NCBI GenBank assembly: GCA_001824825.1
Contig: MHTK01000006.1
Span: forward strand, 57,051 to 121,050
Source of the DNA: Candidatus Vogelbacteria bacterium RIFOXYD1_FULL_46_19
GTDB lineage: Bacteria; Patescibacteriota; Minisyncoccia; Phycocordibacterales; XYD1-FULL-46-19
Reading direction: 5' to 3'
DNA length: 64,000 bases
In this document: piece after piece, positions 2,785-61,378 of the stretch
Position numbering within the stretch: position 1 is the stretch's first letter
Layout of the letters: every line of letters begins with the position of its first letter
Position numbers and translations under genes: made by a program
Notes under the pieces: generated by a model
Database searches by the model: none
Seen by the model: the letters and a program-made list of their open reading frames with translations, nothing else
What the model was told of the DNA's origin: nothing

Positions 2785-3339
2785 ATGAAAAAACATAACC
2801 TAGCTTTTATTGATGTGGAAACTACCGGTTTTGATCCCGAGCGACACGAAATTATTGAATTAGGCTGTGTGGTAGCCAAGCAAAGTGAGAGTACTGATAA
2901 CCAAGGTGCCAAACTGCAAGTTCTTCATGAATTGGAGTATAAAATTCAACCACAAAATTTAGCCGCCGCCGATCCGCAGGCTCTACGCATCAACGGCTAC
3001 AATGAGGCTGATTGGCTTTTTGGTGTTTCTTTAGAACAAGCTTTGACAGACCTCTCGGCCAAGGTGGAAGGGGCAACTTTTGTGGCCCACAATGTGATCT
3101 TTGACTGGAATTTTGTCAGCCGGGCTTTTAGTAAAACCGGAGTCAAAAATACGATGCATTATGGGAAGCTAGATACCTTATCGATAGCTTTCGCCCTGCT
3201 TTACCGCGAAGATCGAGTGCAAAGTTTCAAGCTGGAAAGCTTAGCTGAATTTTTCGGAGTGAAAAATGAGAAGGCTCATACAGCCCTCGCGGACGCTCGA
3301 GCCACTATGGAGATTTACAAAAAAATGTTATCTATATAA
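2785..3339 (+). CDS. DnaQ-like 3'-5' exonuclease (DEDD family, DNA pol III epsilon-like)
   Basis: Exo I motif FIDVETTGFDP, a later FVAHNVIFDW motif and a C-terminal H..ALADA motif. Confidence 0.7.
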   Translation: MKKHNLAFIDVETTGFDPERHEIIELGCVVAKQSESTDNQGAKLQVLHELEYKIQPQNLAAADPQALRINGYNEADWLFGVSLEQALTDLSAKVEGATFVAHNVIFDWNFVSRAFSKTGVKNTMHYGKLDTLSIAFALLYREDRVQSFKLESLAEFFGVKNEKAHTALADARATMEIYKKMLSI

Positions 3340-21945: not shown

Positions 21946-22920
21946 TTGAAAATCATGCCTAAAAAAATCCTTCTCTCGGGCATCAAGCCTACGGGCCGAC
22001 CTCATATTGGCAACTTCTTTGGAGCGATGAAGCAATTTGTCGACTTTCAAGACGAGTATGAATCTTATATTTTCATCCCAGACTACCACGCCCTAACCTC
22101 GGTCCAAGACCGGGAGAAAATGGCTAGCTATACCTTAGACCTAGCTATTGGCCTCCTAGCTATTGGCCTAGACCCCGCTAAAATCACTTTATTTAAACAA
22201 TCAGATGTTCCAGAAGTGACCGAACTCACTTGGATTTTCAATTGTCTCACTACTATGCCTTACCTTATGCGCGCCCACGCTTTCAAGGATGCCGAGGCCA
22301 AAAACAAAGAAATTAATGTCGGAGTGTTTGATTACCCAATGCTAATGGCCGCCGACATTTTAATTCAAGATGCCGACATCGTACCCGTGGGCCAAGACCA
22401 AAAACAACACGTGGAAATTGCCCGCGATACGGCTGAAAAGTTTAATCGCACTTTTGGCGAAACTTTTAAACTACCCTCAAGTTTCATTCAACCAGAGGTA
22501 TCAGTGGTACCCGGTATCGACGGTCGCAAGATGAGCAAAAGCTACAATAACCATATTCCGCTCTTTGCGGGTGACGACGAGGTTAAATCCCTAGTAGCCA
22601 AAATAGTCACCGACTCCAAAACTCCAGACGAACCGAAAGACCCGGCTACCGACAATGTCTTTGCCCTACACCGCTTGTTTAGTGAGGACCAAATTGAAGA
22701 CCTAACCAGTCGTTATCAAGCTGGCACGATCGGCTACAAAGAATCTAAAGATATTTTAGCCGCTAATATTATTAAATTTATTACCCCTCTACGTACCAAG
22801 CGTGAGGCCATTGCCGGCGACACTGCTCACGTTCAAGCCATCCTCACCGAAGGTGGTAAGCGCGCCCGCGAGCACGCCAGCTGCAAGATGGCCGACGTCC
22901 GCCAAAAACTCGGCCTCTAA
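21946..22920 (+). CDS. trpS: tryptophanyl-tRNA synthetase
   Basis: Class I HIGH-like motif TGRPHIGN and KMSKS. Confidence 0.9.
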   Translation: MKIMPKKILLSGIKPTGRPHIGNFFGAMKQFVDFQDEYESYIFIPDYHALTSVQDREKMASYTLDLAIGLLAIGLDPAKITLFKQSDVPEVTELTWIFNCLTTMPYLMRAHAFKDAEAKNKEINVGVFDYPMLMAADILIQDADIVPVGQDQKQHVEIARDTAEKFNRTFGETFKLPSSFIQPEVSVVPGIDGRKMSKSYNNHIPLFAGDDEVKSLVAKIVTDSKTPDEPKDPATDNVFALHRLFSEDQIEDLTSRYQAGTIGYKESKDILAANIIKFITPLRTKREAIAGDTAHVQAILTEGGKRAREHASCKMADVRQKLGL

Positions 22921-22928
22921 TCTTTTTC

Positions 22929-24716
22929 ATGGCTTCCAAATTAAAAAGTCACCATTTTAAAATTGGACTGGTTGTTATTCTAAATTTTCTCAAAGACAAG
23001 CGAAAAGAATCGTTGTTTATTTTAGGGTTGGGTCTCTTGTCGGCCATAGGTAATGGTGTAGTACCTTATATTACCGGTCGGCTGTTTGATAAAATCTTAG
23101 CCCCGGACGAAACACTACTCCTGGCTGGTTATCAATTTCCGCTCTACCTGGTCTTACTGGTCACCCTAGCTCTCATCCAACTAGTCTTGATTGTGGTGGA
23201 ACATCGTAAATACCTTCTGCAATCAGCTTTTGGCTTCGACGGCCGATTTAGCTACCAAAGCGCCGCCTATGCCAAATTGCTAGAGCTCCCGGTTTCCTTT
23301 CACAAGAAGCGCAAAATAGGGGATATTACGACCAAAATTAATAGTGCCGGTATGGGAGTAGAGGTAATCACCGAACGCCTCTTAGGGGGCTTGGGACCTG
23401 AATTTTTGTCGGTCATCGTTGCTATTTTCTTTCTCCTTACCATTAACCCCGTCGTCGCTTTAGTGTCTTTTCTCGCTGTGGGGTTATACGTCATCATTGC
23501 TTACTTTTTTATTAAAGATAGTGCTAGTTTTCAAACCAAACTAATTAGAGGGTGGGGCCGAGCTTACGGCGATGTCCACGATGTGGTCAATAACATCCAT
23601 ACAGTAAAACAATCTGTGACCGAAACCTATGAACAGAAACGCCTCGGTCAGATTTTCAAGAAATTTATTTTACCTCACTGGCTAGGTATGGATATAATTT
23701 GGCAGACCTTAAACACTATTAAGGGTTTACTGGTTATTACTTTACAAATTATTGTCTTTATCTGGTCCATTAGGTTAGTGCTCGCCGGCACGATTACGAT
23801 TGGGGAGCTGATCGCCTTCAATAGCTACTTGGCCATGTTATTTGCTCCTTTCACCACCCTGATGAATATGTGGCGTATAATTCAAAATGGTTTGCTGGAT
23901 ATTGCCGCTGTTGAAAAGATCCTGGCTCTACTACCGGAAAACTACCACCCAGCCAACCAGGTGCCCTTAGAGGCTATTCGCGGACAAATTGCCTTTCAAG
24001 ATGTCAGCTACTACTATGAGAAAGACAAACCGGTGTTAAAGAAAATTAGTTTTGAAGTGCCGGCCGGGCAAGTGGTGGCGCTGGTAGGGGAATCAGGGGT
24101 GGGTAAAAGTACGCTGATCGATTTATTATCTGCTTACGACTTTCCACGCCAAGGTAAAATCCTAATCGACGGCCATAATATTAAATCATTAGATATAAAA
24201 TTTCTGCGTTCAAAAATTGCCGTGGTGCCTCAAGAAGTGGTACTGTTTAATGATACAGTAAAAAAGAACATTGCTTACGGGAATTTTAAAGCCACGGAAG
24301 AGGAAATTGCCACCGCCGCTAAAAATGCTCATGCTTATGACTTCATTCAAAAATTCCCAAAGAAGTGGAAACAAATTGTCGGAGAGCGGGGTGTCAAACT
24401 ATCAGTGGGCCAAAAACAGCGTATTGCTATAGCTAGAGCGATTTTACGCAATCCCTCTATTTTAATCCTAGACGAACCCACTTCCGCCCTCGATGCCAAG
24501 TCGGAACGAATCATTCAGGAGTCATTAAATAAGCTAATGTCTGGTCGCACTACCTTTATTGTAGCTCATCGTTTATCGACTGTCCGCCAAGCTAATTTAA
24601 TTCTGGTCTTCGATGAAGGCCAGATTGTTGAACGCGGTACCCATGATGAACTAATCAACCTAACTGGTGGCCGCTACCGCGAGCTGTACGAACTCCAAAT
24701 CGGCTTGCATCAGTAA
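22929..24716 (+). CDS. ABC transporter, fused permease/ATP-binding subunit (MsbA-like exporter)
   Basis: Six TM helices, Walker A GESGVGKST, the LSVGQKQR signature and Walker B ILILDE. Confidence 0.9.
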   Translation: MASKLKSHHFKIGLVVILNFLKDKRKESLFILGLGLLSAIGNGVVPYITGRLFDKILAPDETLLLAGYQFPLYLVLLVTLALIQLVLIVVEHRKYLLQSAFGFDGRFSYQSAAYAKLLELPVSFHKKRKIGDITTKINSAGMGVEVITERLLGGLGPEFLSVIVAIFFLLTINPVVALVSFLAVGLYVIIAYFFIKDSASFQTKLIRGWGRAYGDVHDVVNNIHTVKQSVTETYEQKRLGQIFKKFILPHWLGMDIIWQTLNTIKGLLVITLQIIVFIWSIRLVLAGTITIGELIAFNSYLAMLFAPFTTLMNMWRIIQNGLLDIAAVEKILALLPENYHPANQVPLEAIRGQIAFQDVSYYYEKDKPVLKKISFEVPAGQVVALVGESGVGKSTLIDLLSAYDFPRQGKILIDGHNIKSLDIKFLRSKIAVVPQEVVLFNDTVKKNIAYGNFKATEEEIATAAKNAHAYDFIQKFPKKWKQIVGERGVKLSVGQKQRIAIARAILRNPSILILDEPTSALDAKSERIIQESLNKLMSGRTTFIVAHRLSTVRQANLILVFDEGQIVERGTHDELINLTGGRYRELYELQIGLHQ

Positions 24717-24785
24717 GTATCAAGAGAAATTGCTTCTACATAAACTAAGCTTATGTGAGGTAGTAGTTGTGGTATAATATAGTGG

Positions 24786-25034
24786 GCTTGTGGCTTTAAA
24801 GAAAAGTGTTATAGTGAGTAAGTAAGCCTGTGATCCGGCCGACACCGGGGAGGCGAGGGAAGAACCGGTTAGGGAAGCTTTAAGGCGGACTGCGGGTCGC
24901 CTACGAAATAAGCTTCGGCGGACCACAGTAGAACCCTCAAGGAGTAATCAAGATATAAACCAGGGTGGCACCGCGGCCTCGAAACCGCCCCTGCGAATTT
25001 ATTATTTACTAAATAAATTCGGAGGGGCGTTTTT
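24786..25034 (+). promoter_or_regulatory. T-box riboswitch leader, Asp specifier GAC, controlling aspS
   Basis: Extended -10 TGgTATAAT at 24770-24778; AGUGA box at 24813-24817; GAC-A at 24841-24844 in a loop; T-box sequence aaaccagggtggcaccgcgg at 24957-24976; 15-bp terminator stem at 24987-25028 followed by a T-run. Confidence 0.7.
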
Positions 25035-25055
25035 GTATCCCTTCGACAAAATATT

Positions 25056-26384
25056 ATGGAACGAACTTATATTAAAGATCTTAAAAAAAAAGTCGGGGCA
25101 GAGGTTTTACTAAAAGGCTGGGTCGACATCAGACGTGACCACGGTAAACTAATTTTTATTGATCTGCGGGACGTCTCCGGACAAGTGCAGATGGTAGTCT
25201 TGCCCAACCACACCGAGGCTCACACGGCAGCGGAAGCCATCCGGCCCGAGTGGGTGGTAGAGGTGACTGGCACTGTTAACCAAAGGCCAGAAAAAATGGT
25301 GAAAGCCGGTGTCTTAAATGGAGATTTGGAATTGGAAGTCACCGGAATTACGGTTGTAGGTACAGCTAAAGAATTACCATTTGAAAAAGAAGCCGATCTA
25401 AACTTTGACACTTATTTAGATCACTTACCCTTAACTCTAAGAACTGAAAGGTCTAAAAGTATTTTTCGCATTCAAGCTTCAATTATTCAGGCTTTTAGGG
25501 AATATTTAGTGGCTCAAAATTTTACAGAGATTCAAGCTCCTAAACTCATTGGTGATGACGCGGAAGGGGGAGCCAACTCCTTCAATATTGAATATTTTGG
25601 CCACACTGCTCACTTAGCTCAAAGTCCTCAGTTTTATAAACAAATTATGGTTGGTATCTTTGAAAAAGTTTTTACCACCGGAAACGTTTATCGAGCAGAA
25701 AAACACAGCACAACCCGCCACTTAAATGAATACACCAGCTTGGACCTGGAAATGGGGTTCATAGACTCCTTCAGGGATATTTGCTCTACAGAGAATAAAC
25801 TACTAGCTCATATTATGAAGAAACTCTCGGAGACCCGAAGTGAAGACTTTAAAGCCCTCGGCTCAACAATCCCCACAGTTCCAGACTCCATTCCAACTCT
25901 TAAACTCAGGGAGGCCCAAGCCATAATAAAGAAGGAATTCGGTGAAGATTGTTCTAATGAACCCGACCTTGAACCACAACACGAAAGGTGGATTTGTGAG
26001 TATGCTAAAAAAACTTGGGACTCCGATTTCATTTTTATCACTCACTTTCCACTATCCAAACGTCCGATGTATACCTACGAAGACCCAGCTGACCCAGGTT
26101 ATGCAGCCGGATTTGACCTTCTGTTTAGAGGAATTGAAATTACGACCGGCGGCCAACGTATTCACGACTATGATAATCTGGTGACCGCTATTAAAGGAAA
26201 GGGCTTGGAACCAGAAAAGTTCTCTTATTACCTCCAAGCCTTTAAATTTGGAATGCCTCCTCATGGTGGACTAGGTTTAGGGCTAGAGCGTCTAACAGCC
26301 AAGCTGATTGGATTAGACAATGTTAAAGAAGCAACCTTATTTCCCCGAGATCTAAATCGAATAGATAATCTATTATCTAAATAG
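25056..26384 (+). CDS. aspS: aspartyl-tRNA synthetase, archaeal/eukaryotic type (442 aa)
   Basis: Class II motifs FRAE-like, LAQSPQFYKQ, and motif 3 GGLGLGLERL; no bacterial GAD insertion. Confidence 0.85.
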   Translation: MERTYIKDLKKKVGAEVLLKGWVDIRRDHGKLIFIDLRDVSGQVQMVVLPNHTEAHTAAEAIRPEWVVEVTGTVNQRPEKMVKAGVLNGDLELEVTGITVVGTAKELPFEKEADLNFDTYLDHLPLTLRTERSKSIFRIQASIIQAFREYLVAQNFTEIQAPKLIGDDAEGGANSFNIEYFGHTAHLAQSPQFYKQIMVGIFEKVFTTGNVYRAEKHSTTRHLNEYTSLDLEMGFIDSFRDICSTENKLLAHIMKKLSETRSEDFKALGSTIPTVPDSIPTLKLREAQAIIKKEFGEDCSNEPDLEPQHERWICEYAKKTWDSDFIFITHFPLSKRPMYTYEDPADPGYAAGFDLLFRGIEITTGGQRIHDYDNLVTAIKGKGLEPEKFSYYLQAFKFGMPPHGGLGLGLERLTAKLIGLDNVKEATLFPRDLNRIDNLLSK

Positions 26385-31390: not shown

Positions 31391-32518
31391 ATGCGAATTT
31401 TATTTACCGGTGGGGGCACGGGGGGACATTTTTACCCCATCATTGCGGTGGCCGAGGAACTACGAGCCGTCGTTTATGAAGAAAAGCTGGTCGGATCCAA
31501 GCTCTACTTCATGTCGGACAAGCCCTATAATGAAAAGTTGTTATTAGAAAACGATATTCGCTTCGTAGTGGCCGCCGCCGGCAAGTGGCGTCGCTACTTT
31601 TCCATTTTAAATTTTACCGATTTATTTAAAATTGGTTTTGGTATTGGGCAAGCCATTTGGAAAATGTTTTGGATTTACCCCGATGTAATTTTTAGCAAAG
31701 GCGGTTATGCGAGTGTACCGGCCGTCTGCGCTGGCCGAATCTTAGGGATTCCTATTTTTATTCACGAGTCTGACTCCCAACCTGGTCGAGCTAATTTATG
31801 GGCCGGAAAATTTGCCCAGCGTATCGCTTTGTCATACGAGGAAGCAGCCAGCTATTTCGAGACCAAGAAAACGGCGGTCGTCGGCAATCCACTGCGCCGA
31901 GAAATTTTAAATCCCATTCCTCAAGGAGCCAAAAAATTTCTTAAACTGGAAGAGGATTTACCCATTATCTTGGTTTTAGGTGGTTCACTTGGATCGCAGT
32001 GCATTAATAATGTTCTGCTAGAATCTCTACCGGAACTACTGGAGTCTTACCAAATAATTCACCAAACCGGTAAACAAAATTTTGCTGATGTAAAAGCCCG
32101 CACTCAAGTTATATTGAAAGATAACCCCAACTCCAAGCGTTACCAAACGTTTGAATATTTAAATGACCTAGCGATGCGAATGGCCGCCGGAGTGGCCGAC
32201 TTGGTTGTTTCCCGGGCCGGATCCGCCATCTTTGAAATTGCACATTGGGAAATTCCGGCTATTATTATTCCCATTCCAGAGACCATTAGTCACGACCAAC
32301 GGAGCAACGCTTTTACTTATGCCCGCTCCGGTGGAGCGGTAGTAATCGAAGAAAATAATTTGTCACCTTCGGTCTTAACCTTAGAGATAAAACGTATTTT
32401 GACAGATCCACGACTGGCGGCCGAAATGCAGATCGGGGCCAAGAATTTTGCCCGGCCGGAAGCCGCTCGCCTGATTGCTAAAGAAATTTTAGACATTGCC
32501 ATCCAACATGAAATCTAA
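31391..32518 (+). CDS. murG: UDP-GlcNAc:undecaprenyl-PP-MurNAc-pentapeptide GlcNAc transferase
   Basis: TGGGTGGH N-terminus and GT-B fold motifs. Confidence 0.9.
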   Translation: MRILFTGGGTGGHFYPIIAVAEELRAVVYEEKLVGSKLYFMSDKPYNEKLLLENDIRFVVAAAGKWRRYFSILNFTDLFKIGFGIGQAIWKMFWIYPDVIFSKGGYASVPAVCAGRILGIPIFIHESDSQPGRANLWAGKFAQRIALSYEEAASYFETKKTAVVGNPLRREILNPIPQGAKKFLKLEEDLPIILVLGGSLGSQCINNVLLESLPELLESYQIIHQTGKQNFADVKARTQVILKDNPNSKRYQTFEYLNDLAMRMAAGVADLVVSRAGSAIFEIAHWEIPAIIIPIPETISHDQRSNAFTYARSGGAVVIEENNLSPSVLTLEIKRILTDPRLAAEMQIGAKNFARPEAARLIAKEILDIAIQHEI

Positions 32519-33827
32519 CCAGTCTATAGTTACACGCTTTGCCCCCAGTCCCACCGGACTTTTACACGCCGGTAATTATCGAACGGCCGTTTTTGCCTAC
32601 CTATTTGCCCGCCAACATAAAGGTAAATTCATTTTACGCCTTGAAGACACTGACCGTGAGCGCAGCCGGCCGGAATACGAGGCTAATATTTTAGACAGTC
32701 TAAGTTGGCTAGGGCTAGAGTATGATGAGTTACACCACCAATCTAAGCGAAGTGAACATCACCGGGCTTATTTAGAAAAAATGATCGCCGGTGGCCAAGC
32801 TTATATCTCCAAGGAAACTCCGGTTAAAGAAGGGGGACGCAGTGAAGTCATTCGTTTCAAAAATCCCAATCGGACAGTGACTTTTACTGACCTCATCCGC
32901 GGTGAAATAATTTTTGACACCACCGAGCTGGGAGATTTTGTGATTGCCAAATCTTTAGATGAACCCCTCTTTCACTTGGCCGTGGTAGCCGATGATGCCG
33001 ACTTAGGTATCACTCACATCATCCGAGGTGAAGATCACATTTCCAACACTCCACGTCAGATATTAATCCAAGAAGCTATCAACGCTCCCACCCCTTTGTA
33101 TGCTCACTTGCCACTAGTCTTGGCTCCAGACCGCTCTAAACTCTCCAAGCGCAAAGGGGCCCTAGCCTTAACCGAGTACCGCAAGCAAGGCTATTTACCG
33201 GAAGCCCTCCTTAACTTTATGACCATGCTCGGCTGGAACCCTGGTACCGACGAAGAAGTTTTGTCTAAGGCCGAGCTAATGGAAAAATTCAACTTGTCTA
33301 AAGTCCAAAAGGCTGGTGCCATTTTCAATGAAGAAAAACTGCGGTGGTTCAACCGAGAGCATTTGCGCCGCCGCCCGGCCGGTGAGCTAAAACAGCTGGT
33401 TTTAGCTAAAATTCCCAACTTAAGCTCTTTGCCTGAAATAAGTCTAGAACGCCTGTTACCGGTTATTTTAGAGCGAGTAGAGACTATAGCAGACCTTGAC
33501 CGGATGAAAGAAGAGGGGGAGTGGGATTACTTCATTGAAACCCCCACGATCTTACCTGAACTTTTAAAAACCCCAAAACACCTACCAGCTTTAGTCAATA
33601 TTTTAGAGCAAGTCCCAGTTGAAAAATTTACTGCCGAAGTCATCAAGGAGACGGTGTGGGATTTTGCTACTAAAGAGGGGAGGAGTGAGGTGCTGTGGCC
33701 GATGCGAGTGGCCTTAACCGGCCGAGCCAAATCACCAGATCCCTTTATCGTAGCGTCTATTTTAGGTAAAGAAAAAACGATCAATCGGTTAAACCAAGGA
33801 ATAGTACTTATCGGAGACGTTAATTAG
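32496..33827 (+). CDS. gltX: glutamyl-tRNA synthetase (start may be the ATG at 32508)
   Basis: RFAPSPTG..H.G and KLSKRKG. Confidence 0.9.
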   Translation: MPSNMKSNQSIVTRFAPSPTGLLHAGNYRTAVFAYLFARQHKGKFILRLEDTDRERSRPEYEANILDSLSWLGLEYDELHHQSKRSEHHRAYLEKMIAGGQAYISKETPVKEGGRSEVIRFKNPNRTVTFTDLIRGEIIFDTTELGDFVIAKSLDEPLFHLAVVADDADLGITHIIRGEDHISNTPRQILIQEAINAPTPLYAHLPLVLAPDRSKLSKRKGALALTEYRKQGYLPEALLNFMTMLGWNPGTDEEVLSKAELMEKFNLSKVQKAGAIFNEEKLRWFNREHLRRRPAGELKQLVLAKIPNLSSLPEISLERLLPVILERVETIADLDRMKEEGEWDYFIETPTILPELLKTPKHLPALVNILEQVPVEKFTAEVIKETVWDFATKEGRSEVLWPMRVALTGRAKSPDPFIVASILGKEKTINRLNQGIVLIGDVN

Positions 33828-39873: not shown

Positions 39874-40806
39874 ATGATACGACAATTTAAACACCAGGAC
39901 ATTACCTGGATCGATGTTTCAGTCCCAACGGCTGAAGAGCTTAATCAGCTGTCTCGCGATTATGAGCTTCATTCTCTAGTCGAAAACGAGCTATCCTCCC
40001 CTAGTCCACGGTCGCGTTTAGACAGTTATGAAAAGTATCTTTATCTGATTCTCCATTTCCCCGCCACCAATGCTTTGGATCAAACTTTGCCGGCTCCGCA
40101 CAAAGTTGATACTAATGAGATTGATTTCATTATCGGTCAAAAATTTCTCATCACTATTCATTATCAACCAATTCAATCTCTCGATGAGTTTAGTGAGATT
40201 TTTGAAACGACATTAACACCGGATTACGCGGCCAAAAAAGCCCACGCCGGCTATCTTTTTTTTCACATTCTGATCAAACTTTACCAATCGCTGGATAAAA
40301 ATTTGGAAATTTTAAATTCAGAATTAAAAAAAATTGAGAAGAATATTTTTGCCGGTCAAGAAAAAGCCATGGTCCGCGTCCTGGCCGACCTACATCACGA
40401 GCTCCTAGACTTCCGCTGGGCCCTAAAATCGCACACTGACATCTTGTCGCAACTTGAAGATGATACCACCGAATTTTTCGGGGCTGACTTTAGGTTTCAT
40501 CCAAAACTAATTCGCTTGGCCTACAATCGCGTCAACACTGCTTTGAGTAATTTACAGGAAATGTACAATGACCTACGAACCACCAATGATTCCCTCCTCA
40601 CAATTAAAACCAACGAAATAATGAAAGTTTTAACCATCATGGCTTTCATTACCTTCCCCTTGTCAGTTTTAACTTCTACTTTCGGCATGAACACTGTTAG
40701 CACCCCAATCCTGGGGGCTCGCCACGATTTCTGGATCATTGTTGTCATTATGCTAACAGCCGTAGCCACTATGTTTGGCTTTTTCCGCTATAAAAGATGG
40801 ATTTAG
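39874..40806 (+). CDS. corA: CorA-family magnesium/cobalt transporter
   Basis: Cytoplasmic domain, two C-terminal TM helices and the GMN motif (FGMNT). Confidence 0.75.
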   Translation: MIRQFKHQDITWIDVSVPTAEELNQLSRDYELHSLVENELSSPSPRSRLDSYEKYLYLILHFPATNALDQTLPAPHKVDTNEIDFIIGQKFLITIHYQPIQSLDEFSEIFETTLTPDYAAKKAHAGYLFFHILIKLYQSLDKNLEILNSELKKIEKNIFAGQEKAMVRVLADLHHELLDFRWALKSHTDILSQLEDDTTEFFGADFRFHPKLIRLAYNRVNTALSNLQEMYNDLRTTNDSLLTIKTNEIMKVLTIMAFITFPLSVLTSTFGMNTVSTPILGARHDFWIIVVIMLTAVATMFGFFRYKRWI

Positions 40807-42206
40807 CTATGCCCCGCTCCCCTCTTTTTTTCTACAATACTTTAAGTCGAAGTAAAGAAGAGTTTACCCCGCTTAACCAGGGCGAAGTTGGTTTGTATTC
40901 TTGCGGCCCCACAGTGTATGACTATGCTCATATTGGTAACTTACGGTCTTATATCTTATCCGATATTCTCCGCCGCACCTTAGAGTGGTCTGGTTACTCG
41001 ATTCGCCAAGTGATCAACATTACTGACGTGGGTCACCTAGCTGGCGATACCACCGACACTGGCGAAGATAAAATTGAGCAAGCGGCGAGAGCCGCCTCTA
41101 AACAAGTGACGGAAATTACGACTCTGTACACCGCCGCTTTTTTTGACGACTTAGTTAAGTTAAACATTAAAACTACCGACACCATTTTTCCTCGCGCCAC
41201 GGCCCATATCCCCGAACAAATTGAGCTGATTAAAACTCTGGAAACCAAGGGTTTAGTTTATGAGGCTGCTGATGGCTTATACTTTGACACCAGTTTATAC
41301 CCGGCCTATACCGAACTAGGCCGGCTAAATTTAAGTGGGCAAGTGGCCGGGGCTCGGGTGGAGGTCACCAAGGGCAAGCGCCAACCGGCCGACTTTGCTT
41401 TGTGGAAATTTTCCCCGCCGGGGGCCGATCGGCTACAGGAGTGGGACTCTCCGTGGGGCCGAGGTTGGCCGGGCTGGCACTTGGAATGCTCCGCGATGAG
41501 CATGAAATATTTAGGCAAACATTTCGACTTACACACCGGGGGCGAAGACCATATCCCTGTTCACCATACGAACGAACGCGCCCAATCAGAGTGTGCGACC
41601 GGCGAACCCTTCGTTAACTATTGGCTACATAATGCCTTCATTACGGTAGACGGCCGAAAAATGTCCAAGTCACTAGGAAATTTTTATACTTTAAGTGACT
41701 TGGCTGGACAAGGATTCCCCGCTTTAGCTTATCGTTACTTTTTACTGGGGGCCCACTATCGTAGCCCCATCAACTTTACCTTCGAAGCCCTCGGGGCAGC
41801 CACCAAGGCTTGGCGAAAAGTAAACACTGAAGTGGCTAGCTTACCCACCGCCAGCAAAACTGATGATCACTTCATGGCTGAGTTTGAAGCTGCGATAGCC
41901 GACGACTTAAACACCGCCAAAGGCCTAGCTCTCTTGCACGAAGTTTTACACTCAAGCCTAGACCCAAGTGTAAAGCGCGCCACTATCCAAAAATTTGATG
42001 AGATTTTGGGTATCTTGGATCTAAATGGGAAACCGCTTGCCAACACTGTCATCCCCGAAACGATCAAGTCCTTAGTTCAAGACCGAGAAATTGCTCGTGG
42101 TCGTGGTGACTGGGCTCAGGCCGACTTACTCCGAGCTGAAATAGATAAACAAGGCTACACTCTAAAAGACACCTCGGCCGGGCCCGAACTGACACCCAAG
42201 ACTTAG
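40797..42206 (+). CDS. cysS: cysteinyl-tRNA synthetase
   Basis: CGPTVYDYAHIGN HIGH-like motif and KMSKSLGN. Confidence 0.9.
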   Translation: MDLAMPRSPLFFYNTLSRSKEEFTPLNQGEVGLYSCGPTVYDYAHIGNLRSYILSDILRRTLEWSGYSIRQVINITDVGHLAGDTTDTGEDKIEQAARAASKQVTEITTLYTAAFFDDLVKLNIKTTDTIFPRATAHIPEQIELIKTLETKGLVYEAADGLYFDTSLYPAYTELGRLNLSGQVAGARVEVTKGKRQPADFALWKFSPPGADRLQEWDSPWGRGWPGWHLECSAMSMKYLGKHFDLHTGGEDHIPVHHTNERAQSECATGEPFVNYWLHNAFITVDGRKMSKSLGNFYTLSDLAGQGFPALAYRYFLLGAHYRSPINFTFEALGAATKAWRKVNTEVASLPTASKTDDHFMAEFEAAIADDLNTAKGLALLHEVLHSSLDPSVKRATIQKFDEILGILDLNGKPLANTVIPETIKSLVQDREIARGRGDWAQADLLRAEIDKQGYTLKDTSAGPELTPKT

Positions 42207-46132: not shown

Positions 46133-47215
46133 CTACTCTTCTAAATCCGGTTTATCCAAGCGGAGCACTTCTATCCCACCGCCTTCGCCGGTAATACGCA
46201 CCACGTCTTTATCGATTTTCTTAAACTCCTTATAGGCATTATTGTAGTGGCTAACCGTCGTCCCCAAAGACCCGCCAATTTTTTGCATAAACGAGTCATA
46301 GACACTGAGGTGTTTACCCAACTCCCCTACCCGCTGCCGTATTTCCTTGGCCGATTCTTCTATTTGTAAGGCCTTCAAACCTTGCAGGACGGTTTGTAAA
46401 TAAGCTAAAAAGGAGGTCGGTGACACAATAATGACGTGATACTTCGCCGCCGCTCGCTGAATCAAATTTTCGGTTTCGCCGTGAATCGCCCCCACTTTAT
46501 TGACCAGCAAATCGTAATAAATCGCCTCGTGAGGAATAAACATAAAAGCAAAGTCCAGTGTACCTTCGTTCGGCCGAATATACTTACCCGTCTCCTGGAT
46601 GCGCATTTTCAAATCACTTAAGAATATCTTTTCCAGTTTTTCCCGCTCGGCCGGATTTTTTTCTTCATTGATACGGTTGTAATTTTCCAAACTGAATTTT
46701 GAATCAACCGGAATAACTTTATCTTTAATGAAAACGGCCGCATCCACAATCTCTCCGTCGGCAAACTTATACTGCATTTCGAAACTACCCGGGGGCAACA
46801 CATTTTTCAACAAGGTTTCCAAGTAATACTCCCCCAGAATTCCTCGCTGTTTGGGATTTTTTAAAATGTCTTGTAAATCCCGTAATTGGTCGGTAAAGTT
46901 CATCACCTGCTTATTGGTCTCATCGAGCTTGGTTAGGCGCTCTGTCACATCCTGGATAATTTTAACCGACTCGGCAAACTGCCCTCGCATCGATTCTTGC
47001 ATAAACTTTGACGACTCTTTAAGCTCAGTACGCACGTGACCCATCCGATCGTCAAGAAGACGTGTCAGTTCATTCATTTGGTTTTGTAGCATCATAAACG
47101 ACTGGCCACTGGCCTCGGTCGTAGCACCCAATTTTGACTTCGCTAAGAAGCGCCAGCCAATAAAGACGACTAGTAAGCCGCCAACTACCCCTATCATCAG
47201 ATAAGTTATTTCCAT
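46133..47215 (-). CDS. rmuC: DNA recombination protein RmuC
   Basis: N-terminal TM helix, coiled coil and the RmuC C-terminal domain pattern. Confidence 0.8.
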   Translation of the reverse strand: MEITYLMIGVVGGLLVVFIGWRFLAKSKLGATTEASGQSFMMLQNQMNELTRLLDDRMGHVRTELKESSKFMQESMRGQFAESVKIIQDVTERLTKLDETNKQVMNFTDQLRDLQDILKNPKQRGILGEYYLETLLKNVLPPGSFEMQYKFADGEIVDAAVFIKDKVIPVDSKFSLENYNRINEEKNPAEREKLEKIFLSDLKMRIQETGKYIRPNEGTLDFAFMFIPHEAIYYDLLVNKVGAIHGETENLIQRAAAKYHVIIVSPTSFLAYLQTVLQGLKALQIEESAKEIRQRVGELGKHLSVYDSFMQKIGGSLGTTVSHYNNAYKEFKKIDKDVVRITGEGGGIEVLRLDKPDLEE

Positions 47216-57675: not shown

Positions 57676-59139
57676 TTATTGGTTATCTTTAGGACGAACC
57701 AGTGGAAAAATTTGAGTTTCGCGAATGGACTTACCGGCCAAATAAGAAAATAGACGCTCACCGAAACCAAAACCGAAGGCCGGGGGCATCCCATGTTCAA
57801 GCATTTCGACGAAATCCGAATCCGGCATCATCGCTTCCTTATCCCCGCCCGCCAAGAGTTCCTGCTGGACTCTAAATCGTTCCGCTTGATCCGCGGGGTC
57901 ATTAAGTTCAGCGTGAGCTCGGCCAAGTTCACTACCAGCCAGTATCACCTGACAGGTTAAAGTCAACCGCGAATCCTCTGGATGTTCTTTTGACAAAGGT
58001 GCCACCAGCTTCGGATGATTCACTAAGAAAGCCGGCCCACTTATTTGCTTGCGGCAAAATTTCCACAAGCTATCCGCGAGCCGTTCCCGATTCTCACCCT
58101 CGTAAGTTACCCCCAGTTCGGTTAACTTGGCTTTTAAAGCACTTTCACTAGCTTCTAAAACATTTATCCCGAGCATTTTTTCAATCGTCTTAACATAGTC
58201 GAGTTCTTCCCAGTCGGCCGCTAGATCGAAGTTATGACCCTTTACTTCAAAACTAGTTCGTCCAAAAACGTTCTGAGCCAAAGTTCGATACAGCTCTTGA
58301 ATTAATTTTTTACCATTAGCAAAAGACAAATACGCGGCGTAGAATTCAATGTTAGTAAATTCTTGCAAGTGTTCAGGGCTACTACCTTCGTTCCGATACA
58401 CCCGCCCGATTTCAAAAGTTTTTGGAAAGCCGGCGGCGAGTAATCGTTTCTGCCACAATTCACCCACCGAGATCCGCAAAAAAACATCCAGATCAAAATC
58501 GTCATGATGAGTTTTAAACGGATTAGCTTCTGCCCCACCAGTGGAAAGTTCTAAGGTTGGAGTTTCCACTTCCAAGAATCCACGCTGTTTTAAGAAAGAA
58601 CGCACTTCGTCCCAAAAGCGGGCTTTCAATACAAAAAGGTCACGCGTCTCCTCATTCATTAAAATGTCTAGATAGCGCTTCCGAAACCGAGCATCATCAT
58701 CAGTCAAGCCGTGCCACTTATCTGGTAGCGGCAGTAGAGTTTTGACGAGCATCCGCCAGTCAGCCACCGCCAAAGTTTTTTCTCCACGCTCAGTAATAAA
58801 CAAGCTCCCACCCAGTTCAATAAAGTCGCCCAAATCCACCGTATCTTTAAACAAATTAAAGGCCTCCCCATCTAAGGCATCACTTTTTAATAAGCCCTGC
58901 AGACGAGCCGACCCATCATCTAAATCAATAAACACCACCGCTCCCTGACCACGAATAGCCCGTACTCGCCCCGCCAGTCGCACCTCCGCCCCTATTTCTA
59001 CCAAGTGATCCCAGTCAGCCACAATGGAGGCTAAATCCCCTGTTCGCTCGACAGTAGCCGGATAAACTTCCTGACCAGCGGCTTTCAACAAACCGAGTTT
59101 TCTCTCGCGTTCGACTCTTATTTCGTCTAAGGAAGCCAT
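57676..59139 (-). CDS. lysS: lysyl-tRNA synthetase, class II
   Basis: N-terminal OB anticodon-binding domain and class II motifs 1-3. Confidence 0.9.
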   Translation of the reverse strand: MASLDEIRVERERKLGLLKAAGQEVYPATVERTGDLASIVADWDHLVEIGAEVRLAGRVRAIRGQGAVVFIDLDDGSARLQGLLKSDALDGEAFNLFKDTVDLGDFIELGGSLFITERGEKTLAVADWRMLVKTLLPLPDKWHGLTDDDARFRKRYLDILMNEETRDLFVLKARFWDEVRSFLKQRGFLEVETPTLELSTGGAEANPFKTHHDDFDLDVFLRISVGELWQKRLLAAGFPKTFEIGRVYRNEGSSPEHLQEFTNIEFYAAYLSFANGKKLIQELYRTLAQNVFGRTSFEVKGHNFDLAADWEELDYVKTIEKMLGINVLEASESALKAKLTELGVTYEGENRERLADSLWKFCRKQISGPAFLVNHPKLVAPLSKEHPEDSRLTLTCQVILAGSELGRAHAELNDPADQAERFRVQQELLAGGDKEAMMPDSDFVEMLEHGMPPAFGFGFGERLFSYLAGKSIRETQIFPLVRPKDNQ

Positions 59140-59698: not shown

Positions 59699-61378
59699 TC
59701 AGTTCAAATACTCCGGGGTGTAAATAGCCATCCAGTCTATAAGCCGCCGCATCACTACCCCGCCCCCAGCGGAAACACCCCGGGGGCCCTGCTCCATCAC
59801 AACCACAAAAGCGTAACGGGGGCGCCCGTAGGGAAAGTAGCCACTGATCCAGGCATTCACATAGCGTTTACTGGCATCCACTTCGGCCGTACCCGACTTG
59901 GCCGCCACTTCCACGGCCGGAGAATTTAAAACCAAAGCGGTACCGTTTGTCACCGTTTGTCTCATCGCTTCTTGAATGACTTTAAAATGAGTAGCTGAAA
60001 AATTGGATTGATTAATCACTTTAGGTTCTGCTCGCGCTACCAAAGTCGGTTGTAATAAACGACCGTTATTGGCTAGATAAGAGACCGCTCGCGCTACTTG
60101 AAGCGGGGTAACTAAATACCCGTACTGACCAATCGAGGTATGGTAAGTATCACCCAGGCGCCACGGCTCACCATTAAAAGTTTTAGCCTTCCACTCGGGA
60201 TTAGGAATCACCCCCGCTGCCTCCACATTCAGTTCGATACCGGTCGGGGCTCCAAAACCGGCCAACCGGGAATACTTTTCAATTCTACTAATACCCAAAC
60301 CAGGCTGGCCACCGGCGCCACCACCAATGGTATAAAAATAAACGTTAGATGACACCGCGAGAGCCCGGCGCAAGTCAACTGCGCCATGAGCCTTATTATC
60401 ATTAAAAATACTCGGTTGATCAGGGAAATATGGATTGGGTACCACCAAGCGGCCACTGCTATAAATAGTTTTAGTCGGGCTAATGATATTTTCCACCAAA
60501 GCCGCTAAACCTAAATAAGGCTTAATGGTCGAACCTGGACTATATAACCCCGACACCACCCGGTTTAGGAATGGGTTGTCTGGATTGGTGACATACTCGT
60601 TAATTAAAACTCGGTTTTTACCAGCGGCCATCACATTCATATCAAACTCCGGAAAACTAACTAAACTTAAAACCTCACCGGTTTCAACATCCATCAACAC
60701 GGCTGCCCCACCCTTAAAGCCATTATTAGTCGCCACTTCACTAATAATCTCATAAAGTTTAGCTTGAACGCGGGCGTCGATAGATAAAGTGATACTTTCC
60801 CCCGGTGTGGGTACCTTCGATACATGATCCGATTCCACTCGGCCGCTAGCATCCACCTCTTCAATTCGCACCCCTCGCTCACCCATCAATATAGAATTAA
60901 AAGTATTTTCCACGCCATTCTTGCCAATATACTCTTTGGGATTAAAATCCCCGTCTTTAAGTTCCAACTCATTCGGATAGCCGATATAACCTAAAACATG
61001 AGCAAAGCCACCGCTCTCTATATACTCGCGTTTGGGATTATTCCAAGCCAAGGCTTCCCCGGTGCGATCATAAATAATGCCACGGTCAGCAAAAACTAAA
61101 GTGTGTCGCAAACGATTCTGATTACTTCTAGTGGCATAGTCTTTACCTTCTACCACTTGAATAAAGCCAATCCGGCCGGCAAAAACTAAGCAAATAATCA
61201 AAAAAGTACCAATAGTGCCCCAAATAGCCTGTTTGGAAATGGGCTTTTCTATTCGGCCCTCAAATTGCTGGTTATCAAAGGAAGGTAGGTTGCGCGAGTC
61301 TAAAAAAATCTCATCAAGATCCAAAGTGATCCGACTAGATTGTCGTCGCCAATTGAGATAGTCAAATATTTTTCCCAT
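59699..61378 (-). CDS. mrdA: penicillin-binding protein 2, elongation-type transpeptidase
   Basis: SxxK (STIKP), SxN (SSN), KSG (KSGTAE) and adjacency to mreDCB. Confidence 0.85.
   Translation of the reverse strand: MGKIFDYLNWRRQSSRITLDLDEIFLDSRNLPSFDNQQFEGRIEKPISKQAIWGTIGTFLIICLVFAGRIGFIQVVEGKDYATRSNQNRLRHTLVFADRGIIYDRTGEALAWNNPKREYIESGGFAHVLGYIGYPNELELKDGDFNPKEYIGKNGVENTFNSILMGERGVRIEEVDASGRVESDHVSKVPTPGESITLSIDARVQAKLYEIISEVATNNGFKGGAAVLMDVETGEVLSLVSFPEFDMNVMAAGKNRVLINEYVTNPDNPFLNRVVSGLYSPGSTIKPYLGLAALVENIISPTKTIYSSGRLVVPNPYFPDQPSIFNDNKAHGAVDLRRALAVSSNVYFYTIGGGAGGQPGLGISRIEKYSRLAGFGAPTGIELNVEAAGVIPNPEWKAKTFNGEPWRLGDTYHTSIGQYGYLVTPLQVARAVSYLANNGRLLQPTLVARAEPKVINQSNFSATHFKVIQEAMRQTVTNGTALVLNSPAVEVAAKSGTAEVDASKRYVNAWISGYFPYGRPRYAFVVVMEQGPRGVSAGGGVVMRRLIDWMAIYTPEYLN

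What the first reader, a model, noticed from the sequence alone, without database searches (positions are those of the whole stretch)
24786..25034. T-box riboswitch with an Asp (GAC) specifier in front of an archaeal-type aspS
The leader contains aaaccAGGGUGGcACCGCGg, matching the T-box consensus AAUUAGGGUGGNACCGCG. It also has an upstream AGUGA box, an F-box-like CCGGUUA, a GAC-A triplet in a G/C-flanked loop where a specifier would lie, and a 15-bp terminator plus U-run that can alternate with the T-box antiterminator. The downstream gene is AspRS, so the GAC (Asp) codon fits. T-box regulation is best known from Firmicutes. Finding it in a reduced genome, tied to the 442-aa archaeal/eukaryotic-type AspRS that may be non-discriminating and so also serve Asn-tRNA formation, is worth recording.
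Basis: partly seen in the sequence, partly recalled or inferred. Interest (0 to 1): 0.55.

Follow-up and report, generated by a model that had tools for sequence, protein, structure and literature searches.

The report
Ultrashort aspartate T-box riboswitch in CPR
The leader of the aspartyl-tRNA synthetase gene in this tiny-genome (CPR/Patescibacteria) bacterium is a real tRNA-sensing T-box riboswitch, but a stripped-down form that standard annotation misses and that combines two features the field has treated as belonging to separate classes.

Summary
Window 24826-25034 is a T-box leader with a GAC (Asp) specifier and mutually exclusive antiterminator and terminator, in front of an archaeal-type non-discriminating AspRS (25056-26384). 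Several anatomical details are wrong. RF00230 scores only 23 bits (gathering score 93). The 'AGUGA box' lies in a candidate -10 box. 'CCGGUUA' lies in Stem II and is not an F-box. Stem I is only 29 nt: a K-turn plus a 5-bp helix whose apical loop CCGACA presents GAC-A. It has no elbow-binding distal domain. Stem II keeps the S-turn, but the window has no IIA/B pseudoknot and no Stem III hairpin. Twelve of 80 related CPR aspS loci and many metagenome contigs carry the same leader. Stem I, Stem II and the terminator all show compensatory changes. A covariance model built without the window scores it 81.6 bits (E~8e-17). The loop triplet is GAC or AAC in every member, both being substrates of this enzyme. 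The literature describes ultrashort Stem I only for translational ileS T-boxes of Actinobacteria. Here it is joined to an intrinsic terminator, on aspS, in Patescibacteria. Function is inferred; no tRNA-Asp gene could be examined.

The parts
24770..24778 (+). Candidate promoter P1, extended -10 (UGGUAUAAU); would start transcription near 24785
   Evidence: Read from the sequence. Its -35 is weak and the consensus scan did not report it. Inferred.
24807..24815 (+).
   Evidence: In relatives a -10-like box lies 6-11 nt upstream of Stem I, which favours P2. Inferred.
24826..24854 (+). Ultrashort Stem I (29 nt): C-stem GCC/GGC, 3-nt bulge UGU, tandem G.A/A.G (K-turn), 5-bp helix UCCGG/CCGGG, apical loop CCGACA
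   Evidence: Alignment A1 and pair counts: 93.8% of cells paired, 23 compensatory cells against 8.7 in shuffles, GA/GA invariant. R1 alignment.
24841..24844 (+). Specifier GAC (Asp) plus the conserved 3' purine A
   Evidence: A17, C18 invariant; column 16 is G or A only; column 19 is A in 11 of 12. GAC or AAC in all ~43 ultrashort leaders. Downstream genes include AspRS and Peptidase_S51.
24855..24938 (+). Stem II: lower helix GAGGG/CCCUC, S-turn (AAGAA 24860-64 opposite AGUAGAA 24927-33), and a non-conserved 62-nt distal extension
   Evidence: S-turn strands invariant, all 5 flanking pairs covary, 98% paired. Fold.
24939..24960 (+). Purine-rich linker AAGGAGUAAUCAAGAUAUAAAC; no IIA/B pseudoknot and no Stem III hairpin
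   Evidence: R1 deletes 16 consensus positions here. Relatives L063 and L138 are the same; most others have a pseudoknot with or without Stem III.
24961..24993 (+). Discriminator/antiterminator: A1 CAGGG/CCCUG, 7-nt T-box bulge UGGCACC (24966-72), A2 GCGG/CCGC, loop CCUCGAAA
   Evidence: RF00230 and R1 alignments. It is the MFE structure of the nascent RNA up to 25008, -11.6 kcal/mol.
24986..25029 (+). Terminator hairpin (7 bp, G.G mismatch, 10 bp, 8-nt loop), -27.1 kcal/mol; its 5' strand overlaps the antiterminator 3' strand
   Evidence: Covariation in A3: 7 of 15 pairs compensatory, 25 cells against 4.5.
25030..25034 (+). U-run of the intrinsic terminator
   Evidence: A U-run follows the equivalent hairpin in the class A leaders parsed.
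25038..25046 (+). Post-terminator complement UCCCUUCGA, able to pair with the terminator 3' strand UCGGAGGGG (25019-25027); role unknown
   Evidence: runs of 8-12 pairs in 10 of 13 leaders; summed run 104 against a shuffle mean of 70.6 (0 of 1000).
25056..26384 (+). aspS, archaeal-type non-discriminating aspartate--tRNA(Asn) ligase, 442 aa; no Shine-Dalgarno site
   Evidence: NF003483 505 bits, TIGR00458 371 bits. No SD upstream.

Best explanation
This is a tRNA-sensing T-box transcription attenuator for aspS. Its decoding module is of the 'ultrashort' type and its expression platform is a classical intrinsic terminator. Transcription starts at one of two candidate promoters. The first 29 nt of the element fold into a K-turn-based mini Stem I whose apical, anticodon-loop-like loop displays GAC followed by A. 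Stem II folds next and places its S-turn purines against the specifier. Uncharged tRNA-Asp (anticodon GUC) pairs with GAC, and its free 3' end (G73-CCA) pairs with UGGC of the T-box bulge. That stabilises the weak antiterminator (about -8 to -12 kcal/mol) and prevents CGCCCCU from nucleating the much stronger terminator (-27 kcal/mol), so RNA polymerase reads into aspS. When tRNA-Asp is charged the antiterminator is not stabilised, the terminator forms, and transcription stops at the U-run (25030-25034). Shown here: every structural element, its conservation and covariation, the mutual exclusivity of the two helices, and the match between specifier and regulated genes. Inferred: tRNA binding, charge sensing, and actual termination. 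The element has no elbow-binding distal Stem I. The window version also lacks the IIA/B pseudoknot and a Stem III hairpin.
For: (1) T-box core and antiterminator: exact 14-mer, 7-nt bulge UGGCACC between A1 and A2. (2) The terminator shares CGCCCCU with the antiterminator (-27.1 against -7.7/-11.6 kcal/mol). All class A leaders parsed have the same arrangement plus a U-run. 7 of 15 terminator pairs covary. The G at terminator position 8 is mismatched in 8 of 15 leaders but pairs in A1. (3) Stem I: K-turn GA/GA invariant, helix covaries, covariation score 0.66 against 0.19 (0 of 500), slid controls 0.15 or less. (4) Stem II S-turn strands invariant, 5 of 5 flanking pairs compensatory. (5) Leave-one-out model R1: window 24826-24993, 81.6 bits, E~8e-17, the only hit in 64 kb. 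Canonical T-boxes score only 32-39 bits with R1. (6) Specifier logic: GAC in about 30 and AAC in about 13 distinct leaders, no other triplet. GAC leaders also precede Peptidase_S51 genes twice, independently. UGGC or UGGU in all ultrashort leaders, while pheS, thrS and cysS T-boxes from the same scan carry UGGU or UGGA. (7) A translational mode is implausible here: only 4 of 47 ORFs in the window have an SD and aspS has none. (8) Counting from the first base of Stem I, the specifier is 16-18, the purine 19, and the S-turn G37-A38-A39. The review uses the same numbers for the actinobacterial ileS T-box, which suggests the same decoding module.
Against: RF00230 is far below its gathering score (23.3 against 93). 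The IDTM, IIA/B pseudoknot and Stem III, each reported as important or essential for tRNA binding in model T-boxes (PMC7583486), are absent in the window. No tRNA-Asp or tRNA-Asn gene lies in the window or any held locus, so GUC and G73 rest on general knowledge. The start site is unresolved (two candidate -10 boxes), and the consensus scans did not report the promoter or the terminator. Only 12 of 80 related aspS loci carry the leader, so it is dispensable. The sequences in the Stem I alignment were chosen with a parser that required pairing, which inflates the percent paired, though not the compensatory-change statistics. No experimental data exist.
Confidence: 0.8

Rival explanations
1. It is an ordinary, canonical T-box (long Stem I with specifier side-bulge, AG bulge and distal loop, F-box pseudoknot), and Rfam misses it only because of sequence drift.
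For: The T-box core and antiterminator are canonical. AGUGA and CCGGUUA strings do occur upstream.
Against: The K-turn C-stem (24826-28 with 24852-54) closes Stem I after 29 nt, leaving no room for a distal domain. RF00230 has to delete about 70 positions of Stem I. AGUGA lies outside the element, in a -10-like box. CCGGUUA lies inside Stem II. R1 shows the pseudoknot segment is deleted.
Confidence: 0.03
2. The switch acts on translation (SD or start-site sequestration), like the actinobacterial ultrashort ileS T-boxes, and the hairpin plus U-run is incidental.
For: Known ultrashort T-boxes are translational. A sister class in front of bacterial-type aspS does pair CCCCU with an AAGGGAC element next to the AUG and lacks a terminator. 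GGAGG occurs in the terminator 3' strand. The post-terminator complement ends 9 nt before the AUG, so a secondary effect on translation is possible.
Against: The hairpin ends 26 nt before the AUG and GGAGG is 31 nt upstream, too far to act as an SD. No SD lies between the U-run and the AUG in any class A member. The genome uses an SD in only 4 of 47 ORFs. A GC-rich-based hairpin followed directly by 4-7 U is conserved and covaries.
Confidence: 0.07
3. The leader is a decaying relic that no longer binds tRNA, and the hairpin is only a constitutive attenuator or the upstream gene's terminator.
For: Three modules reported as needed for tRNA binding are missing. Most close relatives of this aspS have no leader.
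Against: The specifier loop, K-turn, S-turn strands, T-box bulge and the overlap of the two alternative helices are all kept across AspRS lineages only 52-74% identical, with compensatory changes in three helices. The specifier changes only between GAC and AAC. The same pseudoknot-less, Stem III-less layout recurs in L063 and L138.
Confidence: 0.05
4. The GAC leader senses both substrates of the non-discriminating enzyme: tRNA-Asp by perfect pairing and tRNA-Asn (GUU) through a G.U wobble at the first codon position. The AAC variants sense tRNA-Asn only.
For: The enzyme family charges both tRNAs. Relatives switch between GAC and AAC in closely related leaders (L026 against L029). Cross-induction of a T-box by a near-cognate tRNA has been reported (title of PMC2916919, seen).
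Against: T-boxes generally prefer strict Watson-Crick pairing with the anticodon (TBDB paper). If GAC already served both tRNAs, the recurrent switch to AAC would be less expected. Nothing here tests it.
Confidence: 0.15

Closest known systems
Canonical transcriptional T-box leaders of Firmicutes (Rfam RF00230; e.g. B. subtilis tyrS, glyQS)
   Same: The 14-nt T-box sequence; the 7-nt bulge whose UGGN pairs with the tRNA NCCA end; helices A1 and A2; a mutually exclusive, more stable terminator with a U-run; a K-turn at the base of Stem I; a specifier codon followed by a purine; control of an aaRS gene.
   Different: Stem I is 29 nt rather than about 90 nt, and the specifier is in the terminal loop. 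There is no distal interdigitated T-loop platform for the tRNA elbow. The window has no IIA/B pseudoknot or Stem III hairpin. It scores 23 bits against a gathering score of 93. The host is Patescibacteria.
Ultrashort (US) translational ileS T-boxes of Actinobacteria (M. tuberculosis, M. smegmatis, N. farcinica; Sherwood 2015; Battaglia 2019; Suddala & Zhang 2019, as summarised in PMC7583486 and 10.1101/2023.02.28.530422)
   Same: A K-turn followed by a very short Stem I with the specifier in the apical loop; Stem II S-turn of the AGUA/GAA type directly after Stem I; identical position numbering (specifier 16-18, purine 19, G37-A38-A39); no elbow contact.
   Different: Those leaders sequester a Shine-Dalgarno site, are all on ileS with an Ile specifier, occur in Actinobacteria, and keep the IIA/B pseudoknot and Stem III. 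This one ends in an intrinsic terminator, has a GAC (or AAC) specifier on aspS, occurs in CPR, and in the window lacks the pseudoknot and Stem III.
Asn-specific T-box on the ND-AspRS/GatCAB/AsnB operon of Clostridium acetobutylicum (Saad et al. 2012, recalled from my own knowledge; Wels 2008, PMC2494555, notes that one of three C. acetobutylicum aspS genes is T-box regulated)
   Same: A T-box controls a non-discriminating AspRS. The AAC-bearing relatives found here follow the same logic of coupling the enzyme to tRNA-Asn charging.
   Different: That leader is a canonical long-Stem-I Firmicute T-box. The present family toggles between Asp and Asn specifiers on a minimal scaffold.
glyQS-type T-boxes (naturally lacking the Stem II domain)
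   Same: A precedent that T-box modules can be lost. The most reduced relatives (L065, L084: 25-26 nt between Stem I and the T-box) also lack Stem II.
   Different: glyQS leaders keep the long Stem I with the elbow platform and Stem III. The leaders here lack the platform.

Membership tests
T-box riboswitch (general) | Conserved T-box sequence AGGGUGGNACCGCG forming a 7-nt bulge (UGGNACC) between antiterminator helices A1 and A2 | tested here: met
   Exact match at 24962-24975. A1 24961-65/24989-93, bulge 24966-72, A2 24973-76/24985-88.
T-box riboswitch (general) | Specifier codon followed by a purine, presented in Stem I and matching the amino acid of the regulated gene | tested here: met
   GAC-A at 24841-44 in the Stem I loop. 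The gene is AspRS. GAC or AAC only across about 43 leaders, which also control Peptidase_S51 genes.
T-box riboswitch (general) | K-turn (GA motif) at the base of Stem I | tested here: met
   C-stem, 3-nt bulge and tandem GA/GA; G7 A8 and G25 A26 invariant in A1, and the C-stem covaries.
T-box riboswitch (general) | Binding of uncharged cognate tRNA (anticodon to specifier; NCCA to UGGN, with N complementary to the discriminator base) | not testable with these tools
   No tRNA-Asp or tRNA-Asn gene in the window or loci. UGGC is consistent with G73 of bacterial tRNA-Asp and tRNA-Asn (general knowledge). Other aaRS T-boxes in the same scan carry other N bases.
Transcriptional (class I) T-box, RF00230 | Terminator hairpin plus U-run, mutually exclusive with the antiterminator | tested here: met
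   24986-25029 plus U5. Shares CGCCCCU with the antiterminator. -27.1 against -7.7/-11.6 kcal/mol. Conserved and covarying.
Transcriptional (class I) T-box, RF00230 | Long Stem I with distal AG bulge and apical loop forming the interdigitated T-loop platform (IDTM) that stacks on the tRNA elbow | tested here: not met
   Stem I is closed after 29 nt. RF00230 deletes about 70 Stem I positions.
Transcriptional (class I) T-box, RF00230 | Score at or above Rfam's gathering threshold (93 bits) | tested here: not met
   No hit at gathering. 23.3 bits with permissive filters. None of the 12 sister leaders passes.
Stem II-containing T-boxes | Stem II with S-turn (loop E / bulged-G, AGUA opposite GAA) | tested here: met
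   AAGAA 24860-64 opposite AGUAGAA 24927-33, invariant in 12 leaders and flanked by a helix with 5 of 5 compensatory pairs.
Stem II-containing T-boxes | Stem IIA/B pseudoknot containing the F-box after Stem II | tested here: not met
   Only 22 nt lie between Stem II and A1. R1 deletes the pseudoknot positions. It is present in L016, L035, L061, L086, L092, L115 and L136.
T-box discriminator domain | Stem III hairpin flanked by the purine string 5'-RRRxG ... AA-3' | tested here: inconclusive
   No hairpin can form in 24939-24960, but purines (AAGGAG ... AAA) are retained. Canonical long-Stem-I hits L082 and L085 from the same scan also lack an obvious Stem III, so its absence is not specific to this class.
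Ultrashort (US, class II, translational) ileS T-box of Actinobacteria | Very short Stem I with the specifier in the terminal loop, followed by the Stem II S-turn | tested here: met
   Position numbering is identical to that given in the review.
Ultrashort (US, class II, translational) ileS T-box of Actinobacteria | Sequestrator/antisequestrator controlling a Shine-Dalgarno site | tested here: not met
   Terminator plus U-run instead. No SD upstream of aspS, and the genome is SD-poor.
Ultrashort (US, class II, translational) ileS T-box of Actinobacteria | [quoted passage not shown] | tested here: not met
   GAC or AAC specifier, aspS or Peptidase_S51 downstream, CPR hosts.

The most novel reading that the evidence does not exclude
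The leader represents a third T-box architecture: an elbow-contact-free, ultrashort decoding module (a 29-nt Stem I plus an S-turn) wired to an intrinsic terminator. tRNA charge would then be sensed co-transcriptionally without the IDTM. In this window it would also work without the IIA/B pseudoknot or a Stem III hairpin, and in relatives such as L065 and L084 even without Stem II. If it works as read, the accepted argument that transcriptional T-boxes need the elbow platform for fast tRNA capture does not hold in general. These would also be the smallest natural transcriptional T-boxes, and the first riboswitch-type regulators documented in Patescibacteria.
Probability: 0.6. Interest if true: 0.75.

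Novelty: new variant of a known kind. Interest (0 to 1): 0.66.

Why it matters
1. Mechanism. Reviews and papers up to 2024 state that transcriptional T-boxes need a long Stem I whose platform grabs the tRNA elbow, and that ultrashort Stem I belongs to translational ileS leaders of Actinobacteria. This leader family breaks that link and offers natural minimal constructs for testing what tRNA capture during transcription really requires.

2. Annotation. RF00230 and pipelines based on it (TBDB ran its short-Stem-I model only on Actinobacteria and on RF00230 hits) cannot see these leaders. T-box regulation in Patescibacteria, whose gene regulation is described as virtually unknown, has therefore been invisible.

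3. Biology. In a genome that imports its amino acids and has very few regulators, the one aaRS with a leader (of five in this window) is the dual-duty AspRS that supplies both Asp-tRNA and the precursor of Asn-tRNA. Relatives retune the same scaffold between Asp and Asn codons and attach it to Asp-releasing peptidases.

4. Engineering. A T-box module of about 100-170 nt with an easily reprogrammed apical codon would be a useful synthetic part.

Tried and rejected
- RF00230 as the arbiter: it fails at gathering on the window and on all 12 sister leaders. I rejected it as a refutation because it has to delete Stem I, and a class-specific model succeeds.
- Looking for the tRNA partner: no tRNA-Asp or tRNA-Asn in the window, in 60 genome loci or in 59 metagenome loci. 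The only tRNA in the window is tRNA-Glu(CUC).
- Other readings of the loop: CCG, CGA and ACA are rejected. The first two loop positions vary freely, UGA occurs in that register, and only the R of RAC toggles, between Asp and Asn.
- 'No Stem III' as a novelty claim: dropped, because canonical long-Stem-I T-boxes from the same scan (L082, L085) also lack an obvious Stem III.
- A hairpin between the post-terminator UUCGUUCC and the first codons GGAACGAA (L047): it does not covary, since L045 has GCAACGAA, so I rejected it as a conserved feature.
- The long distal extension of the window's Stem II as a substitute elbow platform: rejected, because L063 and L138 have only 14-18 nt there.
- An SD-sequestration mechanism for the window: rejected.
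- MAFFT seed alignments with 9 and 6 sequences had one-column register errors. I reduced the seed to 5 clean rows.
- Literature searches for T-box with CPR, Patescibacteria, Parcubacteria or Saccharibacteria returned nothing relevant. Sherwood 2015 (PMC4313828) is not held.
- The taxonomy of the metagenome contigs and of the class B lineage could not be determined.

Full report
**1. What is at the coordinates**

The intergenic region between an ABC-transporter gene (22929-24716) and ORF 25056-26384 contains the exact 14-nt T-box core AGGGUGGCACCGCG at 24962-24975. It is the only exact copy in the 64-kb window. The ORF is a 442-aa archaeal-type aspartate--tRNA(Asn) ligase: NF003483 scores 505 bits against a cutoff of 353, and TIGR00458 also passes. 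The best relatives of this protein, at 52-74% identity, all come from Patescibacteria/CPR MAGs such as Paceibacteria, Kaiser-, Yonath-, Nomura- and Taylorbacteria. The window therefore comes from a CPR genome.

**2.

Rfam at gathering thresholds finds only a tRNA in the window. With permissive filters RF00230 aligns to 24821-24995 at 23.3 bits (gathering score 93), E=0.003 for a 471-nt search. The discriminator half aligns almost perfectly. About 70 consensus positions of Stem I are deleted. None of the 12 sister leaders found later reaches the threshold either. On the window alone the evidence is weak: the whole-leader fold has z=-1.4, and the simple consensus scans report neither the promoter nor the terminator.

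**3. Anatomy** (coordinates verified)

- Stem I is only 29 nt (24826-24854): C-stem GCC/GGC, 3-nt bulge UGU, tandem G.A/A.G (a textbook K-turn), and helix UCCGG/CCGGG.
- Its apical loop CCGACA presents GAC (24841-43) followed by A.
- Stem II follows directly: GAGGG/CCCUC flank the S-turn strands AAGAA (24860-64) and AGUAGAA (24927-33), with a 62-nt distal extension.
- A 22-nt purine-rich linker (24939-60) leads to the antiterminator: A1 CAGGG/CCCUG, bulge UGGCACC, A2 GCGG/CCGC.
- The terminator (24986-25029, 17 bp with one G.G mismatch) reuses CGCCCCU and is followed by U5.
- In the nascent RNA up to 25008 the antiterminator is the MFE fold (-11.6 kcal/mol). Once its 3' strand is made, the terminator (-27.1 kcal/mol) wins.

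**4. Comparative evidence**

Twelve of the 80 related genome loci carry a T-box upstream of aspS, or of a short operon ending in aspS. A pattern scan and the covariance model described below found the same twelve. I then ran a gene-agnostic metagenome scan with a 22-nt pattern from the discriminator region. It returned 59 loci. Some were canonical long-Stem-I T-boxes on pheS, thrS and cysS with UGGU or UGGA. Many were ultrashort leaders, all with UGGC or UGGU.

| Helix (alignment) | Cells paired | Compensatory change | Covariation score / controls |
|---|---|---|---|
| Stem I (A1, 12 leaders) | 93.8% (70.5% in shuffles) | 23 cells (8.7 in shuffles) | 0.66 against 0.19, 0 of 500; slid registers 0.15 or less |
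| Stem II lower helix (A2) | 98.3% | all 5 pairs, beside invariant S-turn strands | 0.86 against 0.41, 0 of 500 |
| Terminator (A3, 15 leaders) | 93.8% | 7 of 15 pairs; 25 cells (4.5 in shuffles) | 0.39 against 0.15, 0 of 500 |

One caveat applies to Stem I. I selected those sequences with a parser that required pairing, which inflates the percent paired but not the compensatory-change statistics.

A covariance model (R1) built from five relatives, with the window excluded, finds one hit in the window: 24826-24993, full length, 81.6 bits, E~8e-17. Stem II-bearing relatives outside the R1 seed score 52-127 bits with R1. Canonical T-boxes score only 32-39 bits, from the discriminator alone.

**5. 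The specifier**

In about 43 distinct ultrashort leaders the triplet in the specifier register is GAC (about 30) or AAC (about 13), and never anything else. It is followed by a purine in all but one. The two loop bases before it vary freely. The 7-nt loops read YU-RAC-RA, like an anticodon loop.

The genes controlled are archaeal-type or bacterial-type AspRS, twice a Peptidase_S51 protein (the family of aspartyl dipeptidase and cyanophycinase), and, after some AAC leaders, ORFs of unknown function, including a recurrent HExxH protein. Asp and Asn are exactly the two tRNA substrates of a non-discriminating AspRS. The closely related leaders L026 (GAC) and L029 (AAC) show the switch directly.

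**6. Expression platform**

All class A leaders parsed (those on archaeal-type aspS, including the window) have a hairpin of -19 to -46 kcal/mol that starts on CGCCCCU and is followed by a U-run. The window's genome almost never uses Shine-Dalgarno sites (4 of 47 ORFs; aspS has none), and many genes have a TATAAT box a few bases before the start codon. SD sequestration is therefore not an available mechanism here, and transcription attenuation is the best-supported mode.

A sister class B sits on bacterial-type aspS of an undetermined lineage. It has no terminator and instead pairs CCCCU with an AAGGGAC element next to the AUG. That looks like a translational version of the same decoding module.

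**7. Comparison with what is known**

[quoted passage not shown] It also reports that deleting the pseudoknot lowers tRNA binding about 1,200-fold, and that Stem III is indispensable. A 2024 paper repeats the link between short Stem I and translation. A 2023 preprint says that all ultrashort T-boxes regulate ileS and respond to tRNA-Ile. TBDB ran its short-Stem-I model only on Actinobacteria and on sequences RF00230 had already detected. I found no paper describing T-boxes in CPR.

Counting from the first base of Stem I, the specifier (16-18), the purine (19) and the S-turn residues (G37, A38, A39) carry the same numbers the review uses for the actinobacterial ileS structures. That suggests the same decoding module. 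It is an inference from the numbering, because I could not compare the sequences directly.

The element is therefore a T-box by its defining core features. It is neither an RF00230-type nor an actinobacterial US-type member. It joins the decoding module of the latter to the expression platform of the former, on a new gene and amino acid and in a new phylum. I make no novelty claim for the missing Stem III, because canonical hits L082 and L085 lack one too.

**8. Context**

The window encodes five aaRS genes: trpS, aspS, gltX, cysS and lysS. Only aspS has a leader; the others abut the preceding ORF. No asnS, gatA or gatB was seen among the ORFs tested, which says nothing about the rest of the genome.

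**9. Limits**

No tRNA-Asp or tRNA-Asn gene could be examined. The transcription start is unresolved between two candidate -10 boxes. Everything about tRNA binding, charge sensing and termination is inferred from structure and conservation.

**10. Verdict**

The element is a new variant of a known kind and of above-average interest.

Noticed in passing
window 25038-25046 (pairs with 25019-25027); also L136, L138, L047, L045, L049, L061, L079, L128: Right after the terminator U-run there is a conserved segment complementary to the terminator's 3' strand, in effect a second copy of the 5' strand. Runs are 8-12 bp in 10 of 13 leaders, and the summed run of 104 compares with a shuffle mean of 70.6 (0 of 1000). 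In read-through mRNA it could hold the 3' strand in a hairpin whose loop is the U-run and which ends 9 nt before the AUG. Its function is unknown.
   Followed up: partly
L083, L088, L089, L096, L097, L102, L104, L111, L120, L122, L125, L131, L133, L134, L139 (metagenome contigs, some 0.35-0.94 Mb): A sister class of ultrashort GAC/AAC T-boxes lies in front of a bacterial-type AspRS (about 590 aa, MLSLKSKYRTHTCGEL...). Only about 29 nt separate Stem I from the T-box. There is no Stem II and no terminator, and CCCCU pairs with an AAGGGAC element next to the AUG, which looks like translational control. The lineage was not determined.
   Followed up: partly
L029 1383-1597, L063 4840-4950, L138 3234-3348, L114, L009/L100, L098, L112/L130, L123, L124: The same scaffold carries AAC (Asn) instead of GAC in about 13 leaders in front of the same kind of AspRS. 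L026 (GAC) and L029 (AAC) are otherwise closely related leaders. This points to recurrent retuning between the two substrates of the non-discriminating enzyme.
   Followed up: partly
L035 4297-4965; L137 (ORF starting 92 nt after the T-box core at 572): GAC leaders control Peptidase_S51 genes (98.9 and 116 bits), the family of aspartyl dipeptidase and cyanophycinase. In L035 the peptidase gene is followed by aspS. This would be an Asp-supply gene under Asp-tRNA control.
   Followed up: yes
L009 1722-2423 (=L100), L124 (ORF starting 113 nt after the T-box core at 638): AAC (Asn) leaders precede a conserved 226-233-aa ORF (M..EN.EQLPEL.FEYS...) with no Pfam hit but an HExxH motif (HEAIH/HEGIH). 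In L009 it is followed by aspS. It may be a metallopeptidase tied to Asn supply.
   Followed up: partly
L086 (- strand, T-box core at 3325 in reverse-complement coordinates) and L094 (+ strand, 2576): About 2 kb from the aspS leader, the same contigs carry a second terminator-type T-box (UGGA) before a 580-aa ThrRS-like ORF. A short 6-bp hairpin presents ACC (Thr) in an apical 7-nt loop (UCACCAA or CCACCAA) inside a multi-branch fold, with no recognisable long Stem I. Apical specifier loops combined with terminators may not be limited to aspS.
   Followed up: partly
L065 4677-4774, L084 855-936: These are extremely reduced class A members. Only 25-26 nt (containing GAAGUAA) separate the ultrashort Stem I from the T-box, with no Stem II, pseudoknot or Stem III, yet they have a full terminator. 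They are candidates for the smallest natural T-boxes.
   Followed up: no
window, upstream of many ORFs (e.g. 21946, 17318, 33885, 39874, 46133-47215(-), 59699-61378(-)): Only 4 of 47 ORFs have a Shine-Dalgarno-like motif, while many have a TATAAT-like box 5-12 nt before the start codon. This suggests widespread leaderless or very short-leader mRNAs in this genome.
   Followed up: partly
window 21946-22920, 32496-33827, 40797-42206, 57676-59139(-): Four other aaRS genes (trpS, gltX, cysS, lysS) lie in the same 64 kb. None has a leader or a T-box, and all abut or overlap the preceding ORF.
   Followed up: yes
window 24993 and alignment A3 column 8: The G after CCCCU is a G.G mismatch in the terminator in 8 of 15 leaders. 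In the antiterminator it pairs with the C of 'YC-AGGG', extending helix A1. This looks like built-in tuning of the balance between the two helices.
   Followed up: partly
window 24720-24926 (- strand): A 68-aa GTG ORF runs antisense across the promoter, Stem I and Stem II region. It is probably spurious given the conserved RNA structure on the + strand.
   Followed up: no
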